The notes: a model not told the origin generated them from the sequence alone. DNA of 64,000 bases from a candidate division WWE3 bacterium (GCA_030619715.1 JAUXAW010000001.1:3195-67194); one strand, 5' to 3'. Shown: positions 1,027 to 7,642, counted from the stretch's first letter. A program made the numbers and translations.

Positions 1027-1611
1027 CTATTCTTCCTCCTTCCGCCGGGGCACCTGGTGGCAGTGGCGGCAGCGGGCTTCGTAGGTCTCGTCGGCGCCGA
1101 CCATGATCACCGGATCGTCGTAGTTGGCTGGCTGACCGTTAATCAACCGCTGGCTACGGCTAGCCGGCGCACCACAGACGACGCAGATGGCCTGCAGCTT
1201 GTCCACCTTCTCCGCTATGGCCATCAGCAAGGGCATCGGACCGAAGGGCTCACCGCGAAAGTCCATATCCAGTCCAGCAACGACAACACGCACACCACCG
1301 TCTGCTAGCAGATTGCAAACATCGGCGAGAGTGTGCTCGAAGAAGTGCCCCTCGTCAATGAACACCACCTCGATGTCCGGCCCGACCAACGCTGTTATCT
1401 GCCAAACATCTCCCACTATAACAGCTTTGTGACGCTCTCCCCTATGAGAACCCACACTCTCTGCTGTATAGCGGGTGTCGCGGCTGTGATTGAATACCAT
1501 TACCTGCTGCCGGGCAATCTCGGCTCGCCTGATACGACGGAGTAGCTCCTCCGTCTTGCCGCTGAACATGCTGCCGCAGATGACCTCGATCCAACCTCTC
1601 TTTTGAGACAT
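1027..1611 (-). CDS. tdk: Thymidine kinase (TK1 family). The ATG at 1611 is preferred; the track start at 1632 is a TTG.
   Basis: [17 protein letters not shown]-loop. C-terminal Zn ribbon CVVCG...CRHCH. RBS GGAGG 7-9 nt upstream of the ATG at 1611. GC-rich. Confidence 0.85.
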
Positions 1612-1628
1612 ACTCTCCCTCCTCTCCT

Positions 1629-2051
1629 TCAACGATGGTAGCCAAGTCTTCGAACAGCATCAAGGAAAGCACTCTCCTCAGGTCCAATCGGCGACTCGCC
1701 TTCGAGAAGAGCTAGAATCCTTTCAGGAGAAGGGCCCCGCGCTTCAGTTAGGAGCAGTTCGTCTCCGAACTTCTGCCCAAGGGGTCCCTCCCTGAAAGCC
1801 CGCTCCAAAAGAACCAGAGCATCGCTCTCCTTGAGTCCGATCGGAGACCCTCTCGCCAGCAATTCCAGCAATTCTCCGAGGGTAAAACGGGTCGTCTCTC
1901 TCTGAAGCTTTCTGATATGACGCGCTGCCTGACCTGCTGAAGCAAACCCACCCTCAACAAGCTTCAGATTTTTTGTTTCCTCAAAAGTCTCCCTGAGCAT
2001 TACAAAACCATCCTCCGAACCCGTGGCTGACACCGCTATAACCCACTCCAT
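1629..2051 (-). CDS. Hypothetical protein, GC-rich. The likely start is the ATG at 2051, preceded by AGGAGG.
   Basis: [22 protein letters not shown]..., about 140 aa. It lies immediately upstream of tdk on the same strand, with a strong RBS. No recognisable domain. Confidence 0.5.
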
Positions 2052-2183
2052 CCTAACTCCCCTCCTTTCTTTCTTTGTTAAATTTTGATGGTGCTGCGAA
2101 TAAAACAAAAGCCCCTTGCGGGGCAGTTTGAGACAAACCTAGTCAACCATAATTTCTAAATTCTGTAAAGACCTAATTTTGAC

Positions 2184-2218
2184 AACTTGACAAATCTGTT
2201 ACACTTTGGTAGTTTTTA
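2184..2218 (+). promoter_or_regulatory. Candidate sigma70-like promoter (TTGACA-17-TAGTTT) in a divergent intergenic region.
   Basis: The TTGACA motif is duplicated (ttgacaacttgacaa), with a -10-like element 17 nt downstream. It lies upstream of the 2337 lipoprotein ORF. Confidence 0.3.
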
Positions 2219-2336
2219 ATACAGGTTAAAGAGGATCAGCAGATTCACAACACCACAAAACACGGGAAGGAGGCAGACCAGGTCTTTTGTGTTACACCTG
2301 GGTTAGGCACAGAATCGAAGAAAGGAGGTAACCCAC

Positions 2337-2543
2337 ATGTCACGCCGAAGGGCACTAGGGCTTCTATTGCTCATCGTTATACTCTTGGCAGGAGGCTGCG
2401 CACCGCCACTGCCCGGCACACAGGGAAGATGTGAAGCCGATTGCCAAGATTTAGGCCACGAGTTCTGGGAATTCGAGCGGGGCCTTGCTGGGAGCGACTG
2501 CTGGTGCAAACCAGCAAACAAGGACCCCATCCAGGTGTGGTAG
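2337..2543 (+). CDS. Small Cys-rich lipoprotein, 68 aa.
   Basis: RBS GGAGG then ATG. Signal peptide with a lipobox-like LLAGGC. Four more Cys in the mature part. Confidence 0.5.
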   Translation: MSRRRALGLLLLIVILLAGGCAPPLPGTQGRCEADCQDLGHEFWEFERGLAGSDCWCKPANKDPIQVW

Positions 2544-2618
2544 CCCCAAAATGGCACCATCTCAATTCAAACCGTCCAGCAGTAGCTGGACCAAAACACT
2601 CCGAAGGAGGTGAGAGAA

Positions 2619-2882
2619 ATGGCGGAACCTGTAGGTGCCAAAGTCGTCACTGAAGATGGCAGGGTCTACACCGGAAACATCGTCGAACCCGCGTCTCCAG
2701 GGCTGCTTACACTAGAAAGGTGTGCTCTGGTAATACCGGGTGGTGGATGGTGTTCCGAAGGAAAACGGTCCATCCCGATCCACAATGTCCGCCACGTGGA
2801 TCATGGAGAGTTCACATGGGGAATGGGCGCTAAGAGCTGGTTTAAGGATGGGAAGCCCATCATCGATCCCATCCTTACATAA
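2619..2882 (+). CDS. Hypothetical small protein, ~87 aa.
   Basis: RBS GGAGG 8 nt upstream of the ATG at 2619. GC-rich. Followed by a terminator. Confidence 0.45.
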   Translation: MAEPVGAKVVTEDGRVYTGNIVEPASPGLLTLERCALVIPGGGWCSEGKRSIPIHNVRHVDHGEFTWGMGAKSWFKDGKPIIDPILT

Positions 2883-2891
2883 CCAGCCAAA

Positions 2892-2939
2892 AGCCGCAGA
2901 GTGGTAACACCGAAGTTGCTCTGCGGCTACTTTCTTTCA
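2892..2939 (+). terminator. Rho-independent terminator.
   Basis: 10 bp stem AGCCGCAGAG/CTCTGCGGCT with a 17 nt loop, followed by tactttctttc. Confidence 0.6.
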
Positions 2940-2943
2940 AAAC

Positions 2944-3522
2944 CTACTGACCCCACTTTAACGATCGCCCTTCATCAAGAAGCATCAGAAGCATGATTCC
3001 GTAGTTGGCTAAATCCAGAGCCGTGTCCGGCAGTTTCTCGTCGGCAACTTTTCTTTTGTAACTTTTTTTGGAAAGCTGGGTGAGACGAAAGTATTTGTCC
3101 CCGATCCGGACTCCCAGTCCGGGAATCCCCCAAAAGCGAAAGGCATTCCCGTAATCGGCATTTTTACGCCGGAAAAGACTGGTCATTTCTCTGACCAGCT
3201 TCTTAAAAGCTTTTGGTTCGGAAAGACCCAGAAGACTGGGCCTAAAGAAGTTAAGATGAAAGTTGGTAGCATTGATAACTAAGGATTCTGTCGTGCTCTG
3301 AATCCGCTTGCGTAACTTCTGATCCTGTGGTCTCTTTTGCGCCTGGATAAGAAGTTCGACCAGCTCAAAATAGTCTTTCCTCAAATTAGCAGGAGGGTCG
3401 GTAGGATCGTAACTCAAAAGCTGATCCTGACTTAGTGACAAAATCCGTTTCGCCGCAACGGCAAAGTGAGCGGCATTCTCCTTATTGGAAGCCCTCATTA
3501 GTTTTTTTAAATCTTTCATCAT
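2944..3522 (-). CDS. DUF1599-like (nucleotide-modification-associated domain-like) protein, 192 aa.
   Basis: The motif KNADYGNAFRFWG...RIGDKYFRLTQL resembles the K-x-x-DYG-x-A-W/F-R ... D-K/Q-I/Y-F signature I associate with DUF1599. This recollection is unverified. Confidence 0.4.
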   Translation of the reverse strand: MMKDLKKLMRASNKENAAHFAVAAKRILSLSQDQLLSYDPTDPPANLRKDYFELVELLIQAQKRPQDQKLRKRIQSTTESLVINATNFHLNFFRPSLLGLSEPKAFKKLVREMTSLFRRKNADYGNAFRFWGIPGLGVRIGDKYFRLTQLSKKSYKRKVADEKLPDTALDLANYGIMLLMLLDEGRSLKWGQ

Positions 3523-3754
3523 TATGTTTATCTTAGTCTAACGGTAGCTACTGTAATTTTTTGGGGATCAAAGGGGACAACCCGACCGTCTCTTTTTCTA
3601 ATTTTTTCTGGGGTTTGGACAGGAGTTTTGGACACAGAAAACAACCCCGGGGGCAGCGAGGAGTGAGGAAATTCTTTCAACAATGTAAAGAGTATACTAT
3701 GTGTCTCCTCAATGTCAAGCTCCAAAGTAGAGAGGTGCAGAGAAAAATCTGTAA

Positions 3755-4810
3755 CTAAGCGGGAAGAAGGGTCTGACCAGTCCGGAGGGCTCGGGCAACC
3801 TTGTTGGGTATAGTTAGATCTAACTCCCAAAAATTTTGCTGGCGGGTGATCGGTTGGACCGGACCCGAACCACTCTGGCCACTCAGCCATGGCAAAAGAA
3901 TTTTTTCCGCGACCCATTTACTCGCCGCCGGGGCCACTGACTTTGAAATTAAGACCTGCGCCTCGAGAGGCCTTGGCCGAACCGACAAAATATTCAGAAT
4001 CTTGTCAAGCGGATAGGTCATTAGCGCGGCGTGTTCCAAAAGGTCAAACCAGCGATTCTCCTCCTGCCAAACCATCAGCCGTCGAGAAAGTACCGAACCG
4101 GTGTACCAATCTTTCTGGCTGATTATTTTTGGCACCACCGAACGAAACTTCATCTCCAAATCCCGTTTCTCCGCCCAGGCCACCGGATTAACCGCTTCTT
4201 TGGAAAAAACAGGATGCCCGAAGTCATAGCCTTCTGTTTCAGACTTCAACCAATCACCAACTTTATAATCGGAGGGCCAAACGGTCTCCGGGACAGAGGG
4301 GGGTTTCCTGGTCATACTGGTATGGATGATGTGAACACGTGGCCTTCTTTGAGGAATACCGATGTAACGTAAATCCAACCGTACAAGTAAGGTTGTCACG
4401 TTGTCCCAGACATCATAAAGTTGATTGTGAAAATTTGTCAAAAGCTTTCGTCCTAATGTCCAAGATAGAGGGCCTGTTTCCCACCAGATAACTTGGGCGC
4501 GAGAAGCTCCTGCTACTTTAACAAGATCAAGGATTTCCGGAAAAGTTTCTGGATCCTCGTGGGACTTCTTATCAAAGAAACTTAAACTTAAGTGGCTGAA
4601 CCTAGAACAAGGCGGGTTCCCTACAACAATATCTGCTTTAGGAAGACTGTCCGGCATCTGGGAAACTTCTTTGCTCGGCAAACCCAAGGACTGTGCCCCG
4701 CGCAATCCGGGTTTCCAAACTTCCTCACTTTCGAGAACCAGCAAACCCGCCTGTTGGAGACCTAGTAAAAATCCTCCTAAATAACAATGAGTTCCAATAA
4801 CTTTAAGCAT
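3755..4810 (-). CDS. Divergent DNA C5-cytosine methyltransferase-fold protein, 351 aa.
   Basis: Motif IV GNPPCSRFS (PC nucleophile). Motif VI-like WWETG (ENV equivalent). Motif VIII QRRPR. Motif I is degenerate (IGTHCYLGGFLLGLQQAG, no FxGxG). The start is 6 bp after the stop of the upstream kinase gene. Confidence 0.6.
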   Translation of the reverse strand: MLKVIGTHCYLGGFLLGLQQAGLLVLESEEVWKPGLRGAQSLGLPSKEVSQMPDSLPKADIVVGNPPCSRFSHLSLSFFDKKSHEDPETFPEILDLVKVAGASRAQVIWWETGPLSWTLGRKLLTNFHNQLYDVWDNVTTLLVRLDLRYIGIPQRRPRVHIIHTSMTRKPPSVPETVWPSDYKVGDWLKSETEGYDFGHPVFSKEAVNPVAWAEKRDLEMKFRSVVPKIISQKDWYTGSVLSRRLMVWQEENRWFDLLEHAALMTYPLDKILNILSVRPRPLEAQVLISKSVAPAASKWVAEKILLPWLSGQSGSGPVQPITRQQNFWELDLTIPNKVARALRTGQTLLPA

Positions 4811-4816
4811 AAGAGT

Positions 4817-5734
4817 TTAAAGAGCCGCATCAATCTTTTTGAGAATAAACTTGAAATCGGAAGGTTTGTGAACGAAGTCGAGCTCATCAACAGGGATAGT
4901 GACTGTAGAACAAAGGTCAAAACTCCCTACCCACTGATCATGTTTTTGGTTGAGGTGCTCCAAATATTCGGCGGTAATATTCTTTTCGTAAACTCTGCCT
5001 CGTTCTTTGATTCTCTTCAAAAGCTCGGGGACGGGCATCTTGAGATAAATAACAAGGTCAGGGACTTGAATGAGGTTTTTAACTGAGGAATAAAGACTTT
5101 GTAGGGTTCGATAATCTAACCCGTCTAGAATGCCTTGCTCGTATAAACTGGTGGCAAAGATAGAGAACTGCTCATGGACGCTGCGGTCCTGAAAAACGGG
5201 GATGATGCTTTTGTCAATTTCCGAATGGATTCTAAAACTTTCGGCGATGAAGTAAAGCTGGCTATGCAGCGCCCATCTCCCCATATCCTGGTAGTAACGC
5301 GGAAGGTAGGGGTTCCCAAGATCATCTATCAAGAAAAACTTACCGTTGTAATACTTAGCTAGCTTTTTAACCAAAACTGTTTTCCCCGCACCAATATTTC
5401 CCGTAACCACTACGTGGAAGAAGCCCTCCCGGGCCCGGACGGCTCCTTTGGTAATTGTCTTTTTAATCTCGGCCAGTTCCCTCTCAACCGCCGTCAGTTT
5501 TGAAGGCAGCGTATAATCTTTTTCCATGTTCTCGGGAAGGAAAAAGGAGAGAGGTTTATTTAGGACTTTGGCAATCTTCTCCAGCGATTCCAGCGAAAGG
5601 CGAAACTGGCCGCTTTCTAACTGGCTAATAGTTGGACCAGCGTAGTTTGTTTTTTCTCCCAAAATTTCCTGGGAAATTCCTAACTCTTCGCGAGCCTTTC
5701 TAACTTGTTTTCCGACGAATTTTTTAATATTCAT
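4817..5734 (-). CDS. XRE-family HTH domain fused to a deoxynucleoside kinase (dCK/dGK/dNK family).
   Basis: N-terminal QVRKAREELGISQEILGEK...TISQLESG (HTH_XRE). P-loop VVTGNIGAGKT. DRS/ERS-like motif QDRSVHEQFSIF. RBS AAGGAG. Confidence 0.7.
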   Translation of the reverse strand: MNIKKFVGKQVRKAREELGISQEILGEKTNYAGPTISQLESGQFRLSLESLEKIAKVLNKPLSFFLPENMEKDYTLPSKLTAVERELAEIKKTITKGAVRAREGFFHVVVTGNIGAGKTVLVKKLAKYYNGKFFLIDDLGNPYLPRYYQDMGRWALHSQLYFIAESFRIHSEIDKSIIPVFQDRSVHEQFSIFATSLYEQGILDGLDYRTLQSLYSSVKNLIQVPDLVIYLKMPVPELLKRIKERGRVYEKNITAEYLEHLNQKHDQWVGSFDLCSTVTIPVDELDFVHKPSDFKFILKKIDAAL

Positions 5735-6012
5735 AAAACAACTCCTTTGATAAGTCTTGATATTTGTAAGATCAGAGTTAGATTGCAGCTAAGTATAGCA
5801 ATCCTATCTGTGAAGGTCAAGGGTTAGACAAAATGGGGGGAGGTTAGAAGTTGATTATGTTAAATTTCACCCAAAGCTTTATGAATATATCTTCTGACTT
5901 GAGGTAATCTTGTTGTTTCAAGTCGTCTTTAGCAGAAGGTAGGTTTCGGTAGCGTGTTCGATCAAAACATGACTTTGGGCATAAAAAATCTTCCGGGGGC
6001 AGCGGAGAATAT

Positions 6013-7201: not shown

Positions 7202-7642
7202 CTAAATCCTCTTTGTATCCCTCTTAATTCTATTCCTGAAGGTAAACACTTGTAACGGTCTGCTCCCAAAATTTACCAGAAAACCTATACTTAATCCAGA
7301 CGCTCTTAGATAAGAAACCGTTTGTGATCTAAACTGTGAGTGCGAAGTTTCCACCGCCTTAACCTCAACAACAATCTTTCCATCAACTACCAAGTCAATT
7401 CGATGATCCCCAACCTTCCCTCCTTTAAAATGAACCGGCACATGTACTTCCTCTCGAAAGCGAATCCGATGTTCCTTGAGGCACTTTTTAATCGCTTCAA
7501 CATAAACCGACTCTTTAAAGCCGGGACCTAGCTCGTTATAAACCTCAAAGAAAATCCCCCTTAACTTATAGGTGAGCTCCGGATACAACAACTCCTTTTC
7601 ATTGCTGATCCCTCTTGATCCTTCGTCATCCTTCTTAATCAT
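7202..7642 (-). CDS. GxxExxY family protein (PD-(D/E)xK-like).
   Basis: LTYKLRGIFFEVYNELGPGFKESVYVEAI matches the GxxExxY signature. Confidence 0.7.
   Translation of the reverse strand: MIKKDDEGSRGISNEKELLYPELTYKLRGIFFEVYNELGPGFKESVYVEAIKKCLKEHRIRFREEVHVPVHFKGGKVGDHRIDLVVDGKIVVEVKAVETSHSQFRSQTVSYLRASGLSIGFLVNFGSRPLQVFTFRNRIKRDTKRI

What the first reader, a model, noticed from the sequence alone, without database searches (positions are those of the whole stretch)
2944..5734. Translationally coupled XRE-HTH::deoxynucleoside kinase, divergent C5-MTase-fold protein and DUF1599-like protein: candidate nucleoside/DNA modification module
Three minus-strand genes form a unit. A deoxynucleoside kinase carries an N-terminal XRE helix-turn-helix. 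Its stop lies 6 bp from the start of a protein with clear DNA C5-cytosine MTase motifs IV (PPCS), VI-like (WETG) and VIII (QRRPR), but a degenerate SAM motif I. This is followed by a protein with a DUF1599-like (nucleotide-modification-associated) DYGxAF motif. A thymidine kinase sits immediately upstream in a GC-shifted block. Two salvage kinases clustered with a non-canonical pyrimidine-C5 methyltransferase fold and a DUF1599-like protein are not a standard restriction-modification arrangement (no restriction endonuclease is present). The pattern is more reminiscent of nucleotide-level or DNA-level base modification cassettes predicted in comparative-genomics work, or a phage-derived salvage/modification island. 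The tight coupling suggests the kinase and MTase-fold proteins act together.
Basis: partly seen in the sequence, partly recalled or inferred. Interest (0 to 1): 0.75.

Follow-up and report, generated by a model that had tools for sequence, protein, structure and literature searches.

The report
Salvage kinase–repressor plus unusual cytosine-C5 DNA transferase
An uncultured bacterium carries a two-gene cassette, a DNA-binding deoxynucleoside kinase followed by a cytosine-C5 methyltransferase-like enzyme from a rare, uncharacterised and mostly phage-borne clade that always sits among nucleotide-pool genes, so it is a good lead for an undescribed DNA base modification.

Summary
The domain calls are correct: HTH_3+dNK (4817-5734), a divergent C5-MTase fold (3755-4810), DUF1599 (2944-3522) and TK (1027-1632), all on the minus strand.

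The three genes are not one unit.
- A close relative has ftsZ-nrdD-nrdG-DUF1599-dNK-TK at this site.
- Here HTH-dNK plus the MTase-like gene replace nrdDG, leaving a 49-codon nrdD stub.
- DUF1599 is an ancestral neighbour with its own promoter-like site.

The kinase/MTase-like pairing is conserved in three fetched loci, and probably five, usually with dUTPase_2/MazG-like, UDG, dCMP deaminase or ThyA-like genes.

The MTase-like protein belongs to a small discrete family of about 54 clusters among 1.84 billion proteins.
- It keeps the catalytic Cys, Glu and QxRxR.
- It has Ser for the PCQ glutamine and an invariant Lys where canonical enzymes have the motif X Asn. That position is Arg in carboxymethyltransferase CmoX.
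- In phages the wider clade sits beside NTP pyrophosphatase, Tmk-like kinase, ThyA-like, dCMP deaminase and PolA genes. It is sometimes fused to other domains.

Most likely it is a DNA cytosine-C5 transferase tied to the dNTP pool. Whether the product is methyl or a larger group is unresolved.

A TRTCAAR repeat marks HTH-dNK promoters and the TK operon.

The parts
5792..5820 (-). Promoter-like site (TTGACC, 17 nt, TG-TATACT) upstream of the HTH-dNK gene. An AAGGAG ribosome-binding site follows at about 5741-5746.
   Evidence: Consensus scan, 10 of 12 matches with an extended TG. Sequence read. This is a consensus match only.
5746..5762 (-). Operator-like direct repeat TATCAAG-ACT-TATCAAA between the promoter-like site and the HTH-dNK start codon. 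Candidate binding site of the XRE HTH domain.
   Evidence: The pattern T[AG]TCAA[AG]-N0-8-T[AG]TCAA[AG] occurs only twice in the 64 kb window (shuffles: 0.09 expected). It also occurs upstream of the HTH-dNK operons in L042 and L009/L010, and in none of six loci without HTH-dNK. The motif was defined after seeing these sites.
4817..5734 (-). XRE-HTH::deoxynucleoside kinase fusion, 305 aa. HTH is residues 11-65 and the kinase residues 109-302. P-loop GNIGAGKT, DRS motif and Arg-rich lid are present.
   Evidence: Pfam dNK 3.2e-44 and HTH_3 2.5e-12. The fusion architecture is seen in only 14 clusters of 5.8 billion proteins; other hits are standalone dNKs of about 213 aa at 42% identity or less.
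3755..4810 (-). C5-cytosine-MTase-fold protein, 351 aa, of a discrete uncharacterised family. Catalytic C68 (NPPCS), E111 (WWETG), R156/R158 (QRRPR), R253/E259 (motif IX), K290 (motif X 'SKSV' in place of 'GN(A/S)V').
   Evidence: Pfam PF00145 31.1 bits. Family alignment A1. AF2 pLDDT 91 and Foldseek hits to HhaI/HaeIII/DNMT. The profile search shows a score gap between about 54 family clusters and other C5-MTases. K290 aligns with N304.
3691..3718 (-). Promoter-like site (TTGACA, 16 nt, TATACT) in the gap after the MTase-like gene. Probably the former nrdD promoter, now placed to drive DUF1599.
   Evidence: 11 of 12 consensus matches. It lies immediately 5' of the nrdD remnant. The assignment is an inference.
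3528..3692 (-). Remnant of nrdD joined to the last codons of nrdG. The first ~49 codons include the start of an ATP-cone. The stop is at 3528-3530, 5 nt before the DUF1599 ATG.
   Evidence: Pfam ATP-cone fragment at residues 105-124 of ORF 3528-3917. tblastx: 3692-3546 matches the N-terminus of L040 NrdD, and 3560-3523 matches the end of L038 nrdG. tblastn with NrdD_L040: 52.8% over 36 aa, E 7.5e-07.
2944..3522 (-). DUF1599 (NMAD1) protein, 192 aa, all-alpha. An ancestral member of this lineage's nucleotide-metabolism neighbourhood, not part of the inserted cassette.
   Evidence: Pfam PF07659 31.3 bits. phrog_1485 1.6e-19. 84-86% identical and syntenic in L038, which lacks the MTase-like gene. 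AF2 model of 7 helices, pLDDT 85.
2893..2927 (.). Hairpin GCCGCAGAG-N17-CTCTGCGGC followed by TTTT. A terminator-like structure after DUF1599, lying between convergent genes.
   Evidence: Read directly from the sequence. The automatic scan did not call it because the loop exceeds 8 nt.
2178..2192 (-). Second operator-like repeat, TGTCAAG-T-TGTCAAA. It lies at the 5' end of a conserved ~90-nt leader (about 2111-2200) that ends in a GC hairpin, upstream of the 140-aa ORF/TK operon.
   Evidence: It is the only other match to the repeat pattern in the window. The leader is homologous to L038 6585-6665, where the repeat is degenerate (TCTGAAGTTGTAAAA).
1027..2051 (-). Conserved unknown 140-aa ORF (1629-2051; listed as 159 aa from an upstream TTG) and thymidine kinase (1027-1632). 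An ancestral salvage operon, possibly under HTH-dNK control.
   Evidence: TK: Pfam 1.2e-52 and NCBIfam NF003296 284.6 bits. Synteny with L038: 58% for the unknown ORF, 70% for TK. The gene call of 140 aa comes from L037.

Best explanation
A two-gene cassette sits between ftsZ and the remains of nrdDG. It encodes HTH::dNK and a cytosine-C5 transferase from an uncharacterised, largely phage-borne clade of the C5-MTase superfamily.

**The transferase (inferred).** It works on DNA by the standard mechanism. C68 attacks C6 of a flipped cytosine. E111 and R156/R158 hold N3/N4 and O2. A group is then passed to C5 from an AdoMet-type cofactor, bound with the help of E30 and the Y10-x-G-G loop.

The pocket around the transferable group is not that of ordinary methylases. 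S69 replaces the PCQ glutamine and invariant K290 replaces the motif X asparagine. This is the arrangement that lets CmoX and the engineered N-to-K enzymes take carboxy-SAM.

In this organism no CmoA was found in the 64 kb window, so the product is most likely 5-methylcytosine by default. The clade as a whole may install a larger, acidic C5 group.

**The kinase (inferred).** It phosphorylates salvaged deoxynucleosides. Salvage is probably essential here, because nrdDG and the lineage's standalone dNK have been lost from this locus. Its XRE domain probably represses its own operon and the TK operon through TRTCAAR repeats.

**Shown versus inferred.** Shown: domain identities, the family's discreteness and invariant residues, the fold, the insertion/deletion history, and the conserved kinase/MTase-like/NTP-pyrophosphatase/UDG neighbourhood. 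Inferred: substrate (DNA), cofactor, product, and regulation by the HTH.
For: **Fold and catalytic residues**
- Pfam, AF2 and Foldseek.
- Invariant C68, E111, Q154, R156, R158, E259 and K290 in 22-65 sequences.
- The invariant Glu and Arg are the residues that read cytosine N4 and O2 (PMC12783734).

**Two-domain architecture**
- The model aligns with HhaI/HaeIII over about 340 columns, TM 0.61-0.66. This fits a polynucleotide substrate.
- Long forms in the wider clade carry extra C-terminal domains.

**Motif X lysine**
- K290 aligns with HhaI N304 by MAFFT, by phmmer and by chained hhalign at 99.95% and 99.1%.
- This position is R350 in CmoX and the N374K/N377K position of engineered carboxymethyltransferases.

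**Discrete rare family**
- 32 hits in 5.8 billion proteins.
- About 54 clusters scoring at least 190 bits, then a gap.
- 1 of 185,579 species genomes.

**Conserved neighbourhood in cellular loci**
- L042: dUTPase_2 | HTH-dNK > MT > UDG-MtrA-ThyA-like > dCMP deaminase.
- L009/L010: UDG < HTH-dNK < dUTPase_2 | MT.
- L008: secY > MT > MazG/PRA-PH > adk.
- L001: MT > UDG.
- L011: MT, UDG x2, DCD, ThyA.

**Phage modules**
- Family: MT, Tmk-like kinase, dCMP deaminase, ThyA-like, PolA, dUTPase_2.
- Wider clade: helicase, MT, NTP pyrophosphatase, protein B, Tmk-like, ThyA-like, deaminase, PolA in about 50 of 80 loci.

**Insertion and deletion history:**

**Operator-like repeats:**
Against: - No enzymology and no modification data exist for any member.
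- DNA as substrate is inferred from fold only. Every conserved neighbour (kinase, NTP pyrophosphatase, ThyA-like, deaminase) acts on free nucleotides.
- Motif I is non-canonical under one alignment, so AdoMet binding is not assured.
- Lys at the N304 position does not prove a non-methyl product. M.MedI-N377K still methylates more than 99% with SAM.
- The operator motif was defined after the fact from three loci.
- Five of the nine cellular contexts rest on three fetched loci plus two matches of contig length only.
Confidence: 0.5

Rival explanations
1. Routine orphan Dcm. The protein is an ordinary SAM-dependent m5C methylase, for example the remnant of a restriction-modification system or a phage anti-restriction methylase. 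Its position next to salvage genes has no functional meaning.
For: It passes the Pfam PF00145 threshold. All catalytic motifs are intact. PHROGs and PADLOC place it with 'DNA methyltransferase' and Type II MTase models. Phages commonly carry orphan methylases in their replication modules. N-to-K variants still methylate with SAM.
Against: The HTH-dNK/MT pairing recurs at 59-65% protein identity in otherwise unrelated genomic settings. NTP-pyrophosphatase or UDG neighbours appear in 5 of 6 fetched cellular contexts. The family is separated by a score gap from other C5-MTases and has its own invariant residues, including K290. It scores 17.8 bits against the NCBIfam dcm cut-off of 100.65. In L008 it is inserted inside the secY-adk operon with 4-nt overlaps.
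Confidence: 0.2
2. CmoX-like carboxymethyltransferase. The enzyme uses carboxy-SAM and installs 5-carboxymethylcytosine, possibly as a handle for further modification. K290 salt-bridges the cofactor carboxylate.
For: K290 occupies the N304 position, which is R350 in CmoX and K in the engineered M.MpeI and M.MedI variants. Q82 is replaced by small S69, giving more room. The residue three positions before the catalytic Cys is polar (N65), as is S95 in CmoX. In the wider clade the MT is fused or adjacent to a class-I methyltransferase domain and to an unknown ~345-aa partner, as expected for follow-up chemistry on a handle. 8yf3 appears among the structural matches.
Against: No CmoA was found in the window or in any of 122 fetched loci, whereas 4257 CmoA genes accompany 5615 CmoX. 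That tblastn used an E. coli CmoA sequence recalled from memory. The adjacent class-I MTase is generic: TIGR00740 scores 15.9 bits against a cut-off of 193. The motif is NPPC, not SPPC. CmoX is no closer in sequence than HhaI, at E 0.24. A reduced-genome bacterium is unlikely to make prephenate (own knowledge).
Confidence: 0.15
3. Nucleotide-level enzyme. The protein alkylates C5 of dCMP or dCTP made by the upstream kinase. With a dCMP deaminase this would give a folate-independent route to dTMP or a modified dNTP. The NTP pyrophosphatase and UDG would police the pool.
For: Every conserved neighbour acts on free pyrimidine nucleotides. The kinase and MT are 6-9 nt apart. Extra invariant basic residues (R70, K290) could bind a phosphate. 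nrdDG and ThyA/ThyX are absent from the window.
Against: The model keeps the large-plus-small-domain architecture of DNA methylases. Motif IX and a region of target-recognition-domain size are present. Loci L011 and L042 and the phage modules already encode ThyA-like enzymes for nucleotide-level C5 chemistry. To my knowledge, no C5-MTase-fold enzyme is known to act on mononucleotides.
Confidence: 0.08

Closest known systems
Bacterial type II DNA (cytosine-5) methyltransferases (M.HhaI, M.HaeIII; Pfam PF00145)
   Same: Same two-domain fold (Foldseek E 4e-15, TM about 0.6-0.66). Catalytic Cys in a P-C motif, Glu of motif VI, QxRxR of motif VIII, R/E of motif IX, and the ribose-binding Glu of motif II.
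   Different: - Motif X Asn is Lys, the PCQ Gln is Ser, ENV becomes ETG, and motif I is non-canonical or shortened.
- It scores below the NCBIfam dcm cut-off.
- It has no restriction partner.
- It is linked to kinase, NTP-pyrophosphatase and UDG genes instead.
CmoX, phage DNA cytosine C5-carboxymethyltransferase (PDB 8YF3; PMC12783734), and engineered M.MpeI-N374K / M.MedI-N377K
   Same: A basic residue stands at the position of HhaI N304, next to the transferable group. A polar residue stands three positions before the catalytic Cys. The family is largely phage-borne and sits beside genes or domains that could elaborate a handle.
   Different: Lys rather than Arg, and NPPC rather than SPPC. 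No CmoA is nearby. Sequence relationship to CmoX is only superfamily-level (E 0.24). Motif I differs, whereas CmoX keeps Phe-25.
T4-type and SPO1-type phage base-replacement modules (dCTPase/dUTPase, ThyA-like hydroxymethylase, dNMP kinase, dCMP deaminase); own knowledge
   Same: The phage relatives sit in exactly this gene set: NTP pyrophosphatase, ThyA-like, Tmk-like kinase, dCMP deaminase and PolA. The cellular loci carry a reduced version with dNK, dUTPase_2/MazG and UDG.
   Different: Those pathways need no C5-MTase-fold enzyme. What it adds here is unknown. The window itself has only the kinase and the MT.
Enzyme-fused transcription regulators such as NadR (HTH + NMN adenylyltransferase + ribosylnicotinamide kinase), and the XRE-type controller (C) proteins of restriction-modification systems; own knowledge
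   Same: An N-terminal HTH is fused to a salvage kinase. It lies upstream of a DNA-modification gene, and repeat motifs sit at its own promoter.
   Different: The HTH matches many XRE families without specificity; Control_protein models score only 1.4e-06, among RmrA, capH and others. The fusion partner is a dNK. Binding and effector sensing are untested.

Membership tests
DNA (cytosine-5) methyltransferase (PF00145 / TIGR00675 dcm) | Scores above the curated family thresholds | tested here: inconclusive
   Pfam gives 31.1 bits against a cut-off of 22, so it passes, but only residues 3-209 match. NCBIfam dcm gives 17.8 bits against 100.65, so it fails.
DNA (cytosine-5) methyltransferase (PF00145 / TIGR00675 dcm) | Two-domain C5-MTase fold | tested here: met
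   AF2 pLDDT 91, pTM 0.91. Foldseek top hits are M.HhaI, M.HaeIII, DNMT1 and DNMT2, at E 4e-15 to 1e-10.
DNA (cytosine-5) methyltransferase (PF00145 / TIGR00675 dcm) | Catalytic motifs IV (P-C), VI (Glu), VIII (QxRxR) and IX (R..E) | tested here: met
   C68, E111, Q154/R156/R158 and R253/E259 are invariant in A1 and in 65 family sequences.
DNA (cytosine-5) methyltransferase (PF00145 / TIGR00675 dcm) | Motif I F-x-G-x-G (AdoMet loop) | tested here: inconclusive
   An ungapped alignment gives H8-x-Y10-x-G-G. hhalign of the wider clade to HhaI instead opens a 2-residue gap that aligns the aromatic residue with F18. The ribose-binding Glu (E30) is invariant.
DNA (cytosine-5) methyltransferase (PF00145 / TIGR00675 dcm) | Motif X G-N-(A/S)-V with the conserved Asn (HhaI N304) | tested here: not met
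   The motif is S-K-S-V. K appears in 62 of 65 family sequences and K/R in 40 of 45 of the wider clade.
DNA (cytosine-5) methyltransferase (PF00145 / TIGR00675 dcm) | SAM-dependent methyl transfer to DNA cytosine C5 | not testable with these tools
   This needs enzymology or modification mapping.
CmoX DNA cytosine C5-carboxymethyltransferase | Basic residue in place of HhaI N304 that binds the cofactor carboxylate | tested here: met
   K290. CmoX has R350 and the engineered enzymes have K.
CmoX DNA cytosine C5-carboxymethyltransferase | SPPC motif, used by the authors as a signature | tested here: not met
   NPPC is invariant. The signature is described.
CmoX DNA cytosine C5-carboxymethyltransferase | Cx-SAM synthase CmoA in the neighbourhood or genome | tested here: not met
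   No tblastn hit in the window or in 122 loci, using an E. coli CmoA query recalled from memory. No CmoA-type Pfam domain appears in the gene tables. The rest of the genome was not seen.
Deoxynucleoside kinase (PF01712) | dNK domain with P-loop, (E/D)RS motif and Arg-rich lid | tested here: met
   Pfam 151.6 bits, profile positions 2-199 of 203. GNIGAGKT, QDRS and RIKERGR were read in the translation.
XRE-family HTH (PF01381) | HTH_3 domain; binding to specific operators | tested here: inconclusive
   The domain is met: 47.1 bits, profile positions 1-55 of 55. The operators are only a motif-based inference.
DUF1599 / nucleotide modification associated domain 1 (PF07659) | Profile match above threshold | tested here: met
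   31.3 bits against 25, residues 120-180. All 33 close homologues carry PF07659. phrog_1485 1.6e-19.
All-alpha NTP pyrophosphohydrolases (MazG / dUTPase_2), considered for the DUF1599 protein | Detectable profile or fold relationship | tested here: inconclusive
Type II restriction-modification system | Adjacent restriction endonuclease | tested here: not met
   The flanks are ftsZ/HTH-dNK on one side and the nrdD stub/DUF1599 on the other. None of the cellular loci lists a nuclease next to the MT.

The most novel reading that the evidence does not exclude
The MTase-like protein and its roughly 900-cluster clade are not methylases. They would form a second natural class of C5-cytosine transferases that install a non-methyl group, either carboxymethyl or another acidic or bulky group. 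Alternatively, they would substitute a 5-hydroxymethyl group supplied through the adjacent ThyA-like/kinase/NTP-pyrophosphatase pool genes. Either way this gives an undescribed cytosine hypermodification in phages. A reduced-genome bacterium would then have domesticated it together with a kinase-repressor that couples modification to deoxynucleoside salvage.
Probability: 0.25. Interest if true: 0.85.

Novelty: new variant of a known kind. Interest (0 to 1): 0.6.

Why it matters
Natural expansion of C5-cytosine chemistry beyond methyl was shown only recently, with CmoX in 2025.

This clade carries the same key pocket substitution but has a different signature, different partners and no CmoA. 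It has no cultured or characterised member. It is therefore a defined, testable candidate for a new DNA modification, and possibly a new enzyme tool.

The rare HTH::dNK fusion with matching repeats at two salvage promoters would be a simple one-protein link between deoxynucleoside supply and gene control, in an organism that appears to have lost ribonucleotide reductase at this locus.

The locus also records a clean evolutionary event. De novo dNTP synthesis genes were replaced by a salvage-plus-modification cassette.

Tried and rejected
2. **DUF1599 as part of the cassette.** Rejected by synteny with L038, L040 and L041.
3. **Horizontal origin of the cassette from GC content.** The cassette GC equals the window mean, so GC gives no evidence either way.
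4. **CmoA or another Cx-SAM source nearby.** None found.
5. **Defence-system membership.** PADLOC gives only generic Type II MTase and XRE hits.
6. **'Two MT paralogues per phage locus.'** This was an artefact of single-linkage clustering through fusion proteins. The second gene is an unrelated ~345-aa partner, protein B.
7. **Protein B as a glycosyltransferase.** No Pfam, NCBIfam or PDB sequence support. Not claimed.
8. **Cultured phages with close homologues.** None: best identity is 24-30%.
9. **Literature on DUF1599/NMAD1.** The library holds nothing informative.
10. **Organism identity.** Cluster look-up returned no names. Rfam found no RNA family in the window.
11. **C-terminal third of the MT against PDB by sequence.** No hits.

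Full report

- 4817-5734: HTH_3 (2.5e-12) fused to a deoxynucleoside kinase (3.2e-44).
- 3755-4810: matches C-5 DNA methylase PF00145 weakly (31.1 bits, N-terminal 209 residues only). It fails the NCBIfam dcm cut-off (17.8 against 100.65 bits).
- 2944-3522: DUF1599 (31.3 bits against 25).
- 1027-1632: thymidine kinase.

The kinase stop is 6 nt from the next start codon. An AlphaFold model of the methylase-like protein is confident (pLDDT 91). It superposes on M.HhaI, M.HaeIII, DNMT1 and DNMT2 over about 340 columns.

**Anatomy and history of the locus.** The closest relative fetched is L038 (GCA_030602025.1), whose DUF1599 protein is 86% identical. Its gene order is ftsA-ftsZ-nrdD-nrdG-DUF1599-(191 aa)-dNK-TK, with no methylase-like gene and no HTH on the kinase.

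tblastx shows the window is collinear with it, apart from four differences:
1. nrdD and nrdG are gone. In their place lie HTH-dNK and the methylase-like gene.
2. 3692-3546 still encodes the first ~49 residues of NrdD, with the ATP-cone start (43-53% identity to L040 NrdD). It is joined to the last codons of nrdG and stops 5 nt before the DUF1599 ATG.
3. The standalone dNK between the unknown ORF and TK is missing.
4. Two small insertions are present, at 2180-2940 and at the 146-aa PDDEXK_3 ORF 7202-7642.

A strong promoter-like site (TTGACA-16-TATACT, 3718-3691) sits just upstream of the nrdD stub. A hairpin follows DUF1599. The 'three-gene unit' is therefore a two-gene cassette next to an ancestral gene with its own likely promoter.

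Other DUF1599 homologues also sit among nucleotide genes without the methylase-like gene:
- L040: TK, ThyX, and NrdDG nearby.
- L041: dCMP deaminase, ThyA fusion, dNK/TK, Tmk.

GC content does not mark the cassette as foreign (0.463 against a window mean of 0.464). TK, ftsZ and ftsA are the GC-rich genes.

**The methylase-like family.**
- Only 32 proteins in 5.8 billion match it.
- A profile search of 1.84 billion representatives gives about 54 clusters at 190 bits or more. Scores then drop to 120 bits or less for other C5-MTase-like proteins.
- It occurs in 1 of 185,579 species genomes, 7 IMG/VR contigs and 17 metagenome contigs.

Invariant residues include E30, N65-P-P-C68-S-R70, W-W-E111-T-G-P-L, P-Q154-x-R156-x-R158-x-H, R253, E259 and K290.

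K290 aligns with the motif X asparagine (HhaI N304) by three routes:
- MAFFT with 65 family and 45 related sequences.
- A phmmer alignment of a clade member to MET1.
- Chained hhalign: family to wider clade at 99.95%, wider clade to HhaI at 99.1%, both full length.

The PCQ glutamine is serine.

Motif I is either H-x-Y-x-G-G or a loop two residues shorter that keeps the aromatic residue. I cannot tell which, so 'degenerate SAM pocket' is not established.

The roughly 900 clusters nearest to the family share [HY]-x-[FY]-x-G-G, NPPC[AS], E-S-V and K/R at the N304 position.

**Why the lysine matters, and its limits.** In the natural carboxymethyltransferase CmoX, Arg-350 replaces N304 and contacts the carboxymethyl group of Cx-SAM. 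CmoX R350N is inactive, and the wild type takes only Cx-SAM (PMC12783734). The authors note that this mirrors the engineered M.MpeI N374K.

M.MedI-N377K, however, still methylates more than 99% with SAM (PMC12015181). A lysine here therefore permits carboxymethyl transfer but does not enforce it.

No CmoA was found in the window or in any fetched locus. The class-I methyltransferase that is adjacent or fused in some phage relatives is generic.

**Conserved neighbourhoods.**

Cellular loci:

| Locus | MT identity to window | Gene order |
|---|---|---|
| L042 | 59% | dUTPase_2, then divergently HTH-dNK (305 aa) > MT (9-nt gap) > UDG-MtrA-ThyA-like fusion > dCMP deaminase |
| L009/L010 | 65% | UDG < HTH-dNK < dUTPase_2, divergent from MT |
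| L008 | 65% | MT > MazG/PRA-PH, inserted between secY and adk |
| L001-L003 | 56% | MT > UDG |
| L011 | 56% | MT, unknown ORF, two UDGs, DCD, HAD, GCV_T, ThyA |

The HTH::dNK architecture is itself rare: 14 clusters, with all other hits being standalone kinases. Two of those fusion proteins share contig length and source with methylase-like proteins: P0205 with P0001 (3217 bp) and P0208 with P0005 (3373 bp). This suggests two more adjacent pairs.

Phage loci:
- The family lies in the order DUF932, unknown 345-aa protein, MT, Tmk-like kinase, unknown ORF, dCMP deaminase, ThyA-like, PolA, dUTPase_2.
- The wider clade was found in 182 IMG/VR loci. About 50 of the 80 fetched have the order helicase, MT, NTP pyrophosphatase, the same ~345-aa partner, Tmk-like kinase, ThyA-like, dCMP deaminase, PolA.
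- The partner is fused to the MT in L058 and L100. A Methyltransf_23 domain is fused in L056/L057.
- No cultured phage has a close homologue.

**Regulation (inference).** Upstream of HTH-dNK lie a promoter-like site (5820-5792) and the repeat TATCAAG-ACT-TATCAAA.
- The pattern T[AG]TCAA[AG]-N0-8-T[AG]TCAA[AG] occurs upstream of the HTH-dNK operons of L042 and L009/L010.
- It is absent from six loci without the fusion.
- It has only one other match in the 64 kb window (0.09 expected). That match is at 2192-2178, at the head of a conserved leader before the 140-aa ORF/TK operon.
- In L038, which lacks the HTH, the homologous stretch is degenerate.

The motif was defined after the fact, so only the second site counts as a test.

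**DUF1599.** The model is a seven-helix bundle.
- Sequence profiles show no relation to the MazG-like or dUTPase_2 proteins of the other loci.
- Foldseek finds nothing.

Its function stays open. Its genomic company says pyrimidine deoxynucleotide metabolism.

**Interpretation.**
- *Most likely (about 0.5).* A DNA cytosine-C5 transferase of a new subfamily, co-expressed with, and probably regulated by, a kinase-repressor. It is functionally tied to the dNTP pool.
- *Product in this organism.* Probably 5mC by default, because no Cx-SAM source is evident and N-to-K enzymes still methylate.
- *Clade as a whole.* The pocket and the fused or adjacent partners leave real room for a non-methyl product.
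- *Rivals.* A routine orphan Dcm with incidental neighbours (0.2), a CmoX-like carboxymethyltransferase (0.15), and a nucleotide-level C5 transferase (0.08).

The window lacks UDG, dUTPase_2/MazG, ThyA/ThyX, dCMP deaminase and nrdDG. Only the minimal kinase+MT pair is present here. Taxonomy was not verified.

Noticed in passing
window 3528-3692 (-): Pseudogene stub. The first ~49 codons of nrdD (ATP-cone start) are joined to the end of nrdG. It marks a deletion of the anaerobic ribonucleotide reductase and its activase relative to L038 and L040. No nrdD or nrdG lies elsewhere in the 64 kb window.
   Followed up: yes
window 7202-7642 (-): A 146-aa PDDEXK_3 (PF13366, 1.2e-32) ORF is inserted between ftsA and ftsZ. 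It is absent from the syntenic relative L038, so it looks like a small selfish or mobile insertion in the division operon.
   Followed up: partly
window 2111-2200 (-); L038 6585-6665: A conserved ~90-nt non-coding leader ends in the hairpin GCCCCGCAAGGGGC plus a T-run, upstream of the 140-aa ORF/TK operon. It is conserved in L038 and has no Rfam match. It may be an attenuator or a small structured RNA.
   Followed up: partly
window 2180-2940: A ~760-bp insertion relative to L038 carries plus-strand small ORFs. One is a 68-aa product with a lipoprotein-like signal peptide (MSRRRALGLLLLIVILLAGGC, 2337-2543). The other is a 90-aa ORF (2610-2882). Neither has a Pfam match.
   Followed up: no
L042 2975-5182: A 735-aa triple fusion lies directly after the MT-like gene: UDG (8.3e-20), MtrA-like pterin-binding domain (4.5e-33) and a weak ThyA-like C-terminus (E 0.0031). 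L041 has a related MtrA+ThyA+DUF4346 fusion. The UDGs next to MT-like genes have an unusual motif A (SQAPS) and N-terminal CxxC pairs.
   Followed up: partly
L058 5971-8454; L100 5986-8598; L056 5968-7887; L095 7450-8475: In the wider phage clade the C5-MTase-like domain is fused to an uncharacterised ~345-aa protein (conserved DDWQ and GWWRVRY; no Pfam or PDB match) or to a Methyltransf_23 domain. Many long forms also share a ~60-aa C-terminal module (GSGxYIRRLL...SDxSWN).
   Followed up: partly
L008 3649-5398: The MT-like gene and a MazG/PRA-PH-like gene are inserted inside the conserved ribosomal spc operon between secY and adk, with 4-nt overlaps or gaps. This is an unusual place for a DNA-modification gene.
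   Followed up: no
window 1-64000: An Rfam scan at gathering thresholds found no RNA family at all (no tRNA, rRNA or riboswitch) in 64 kb.
   Followed up: no
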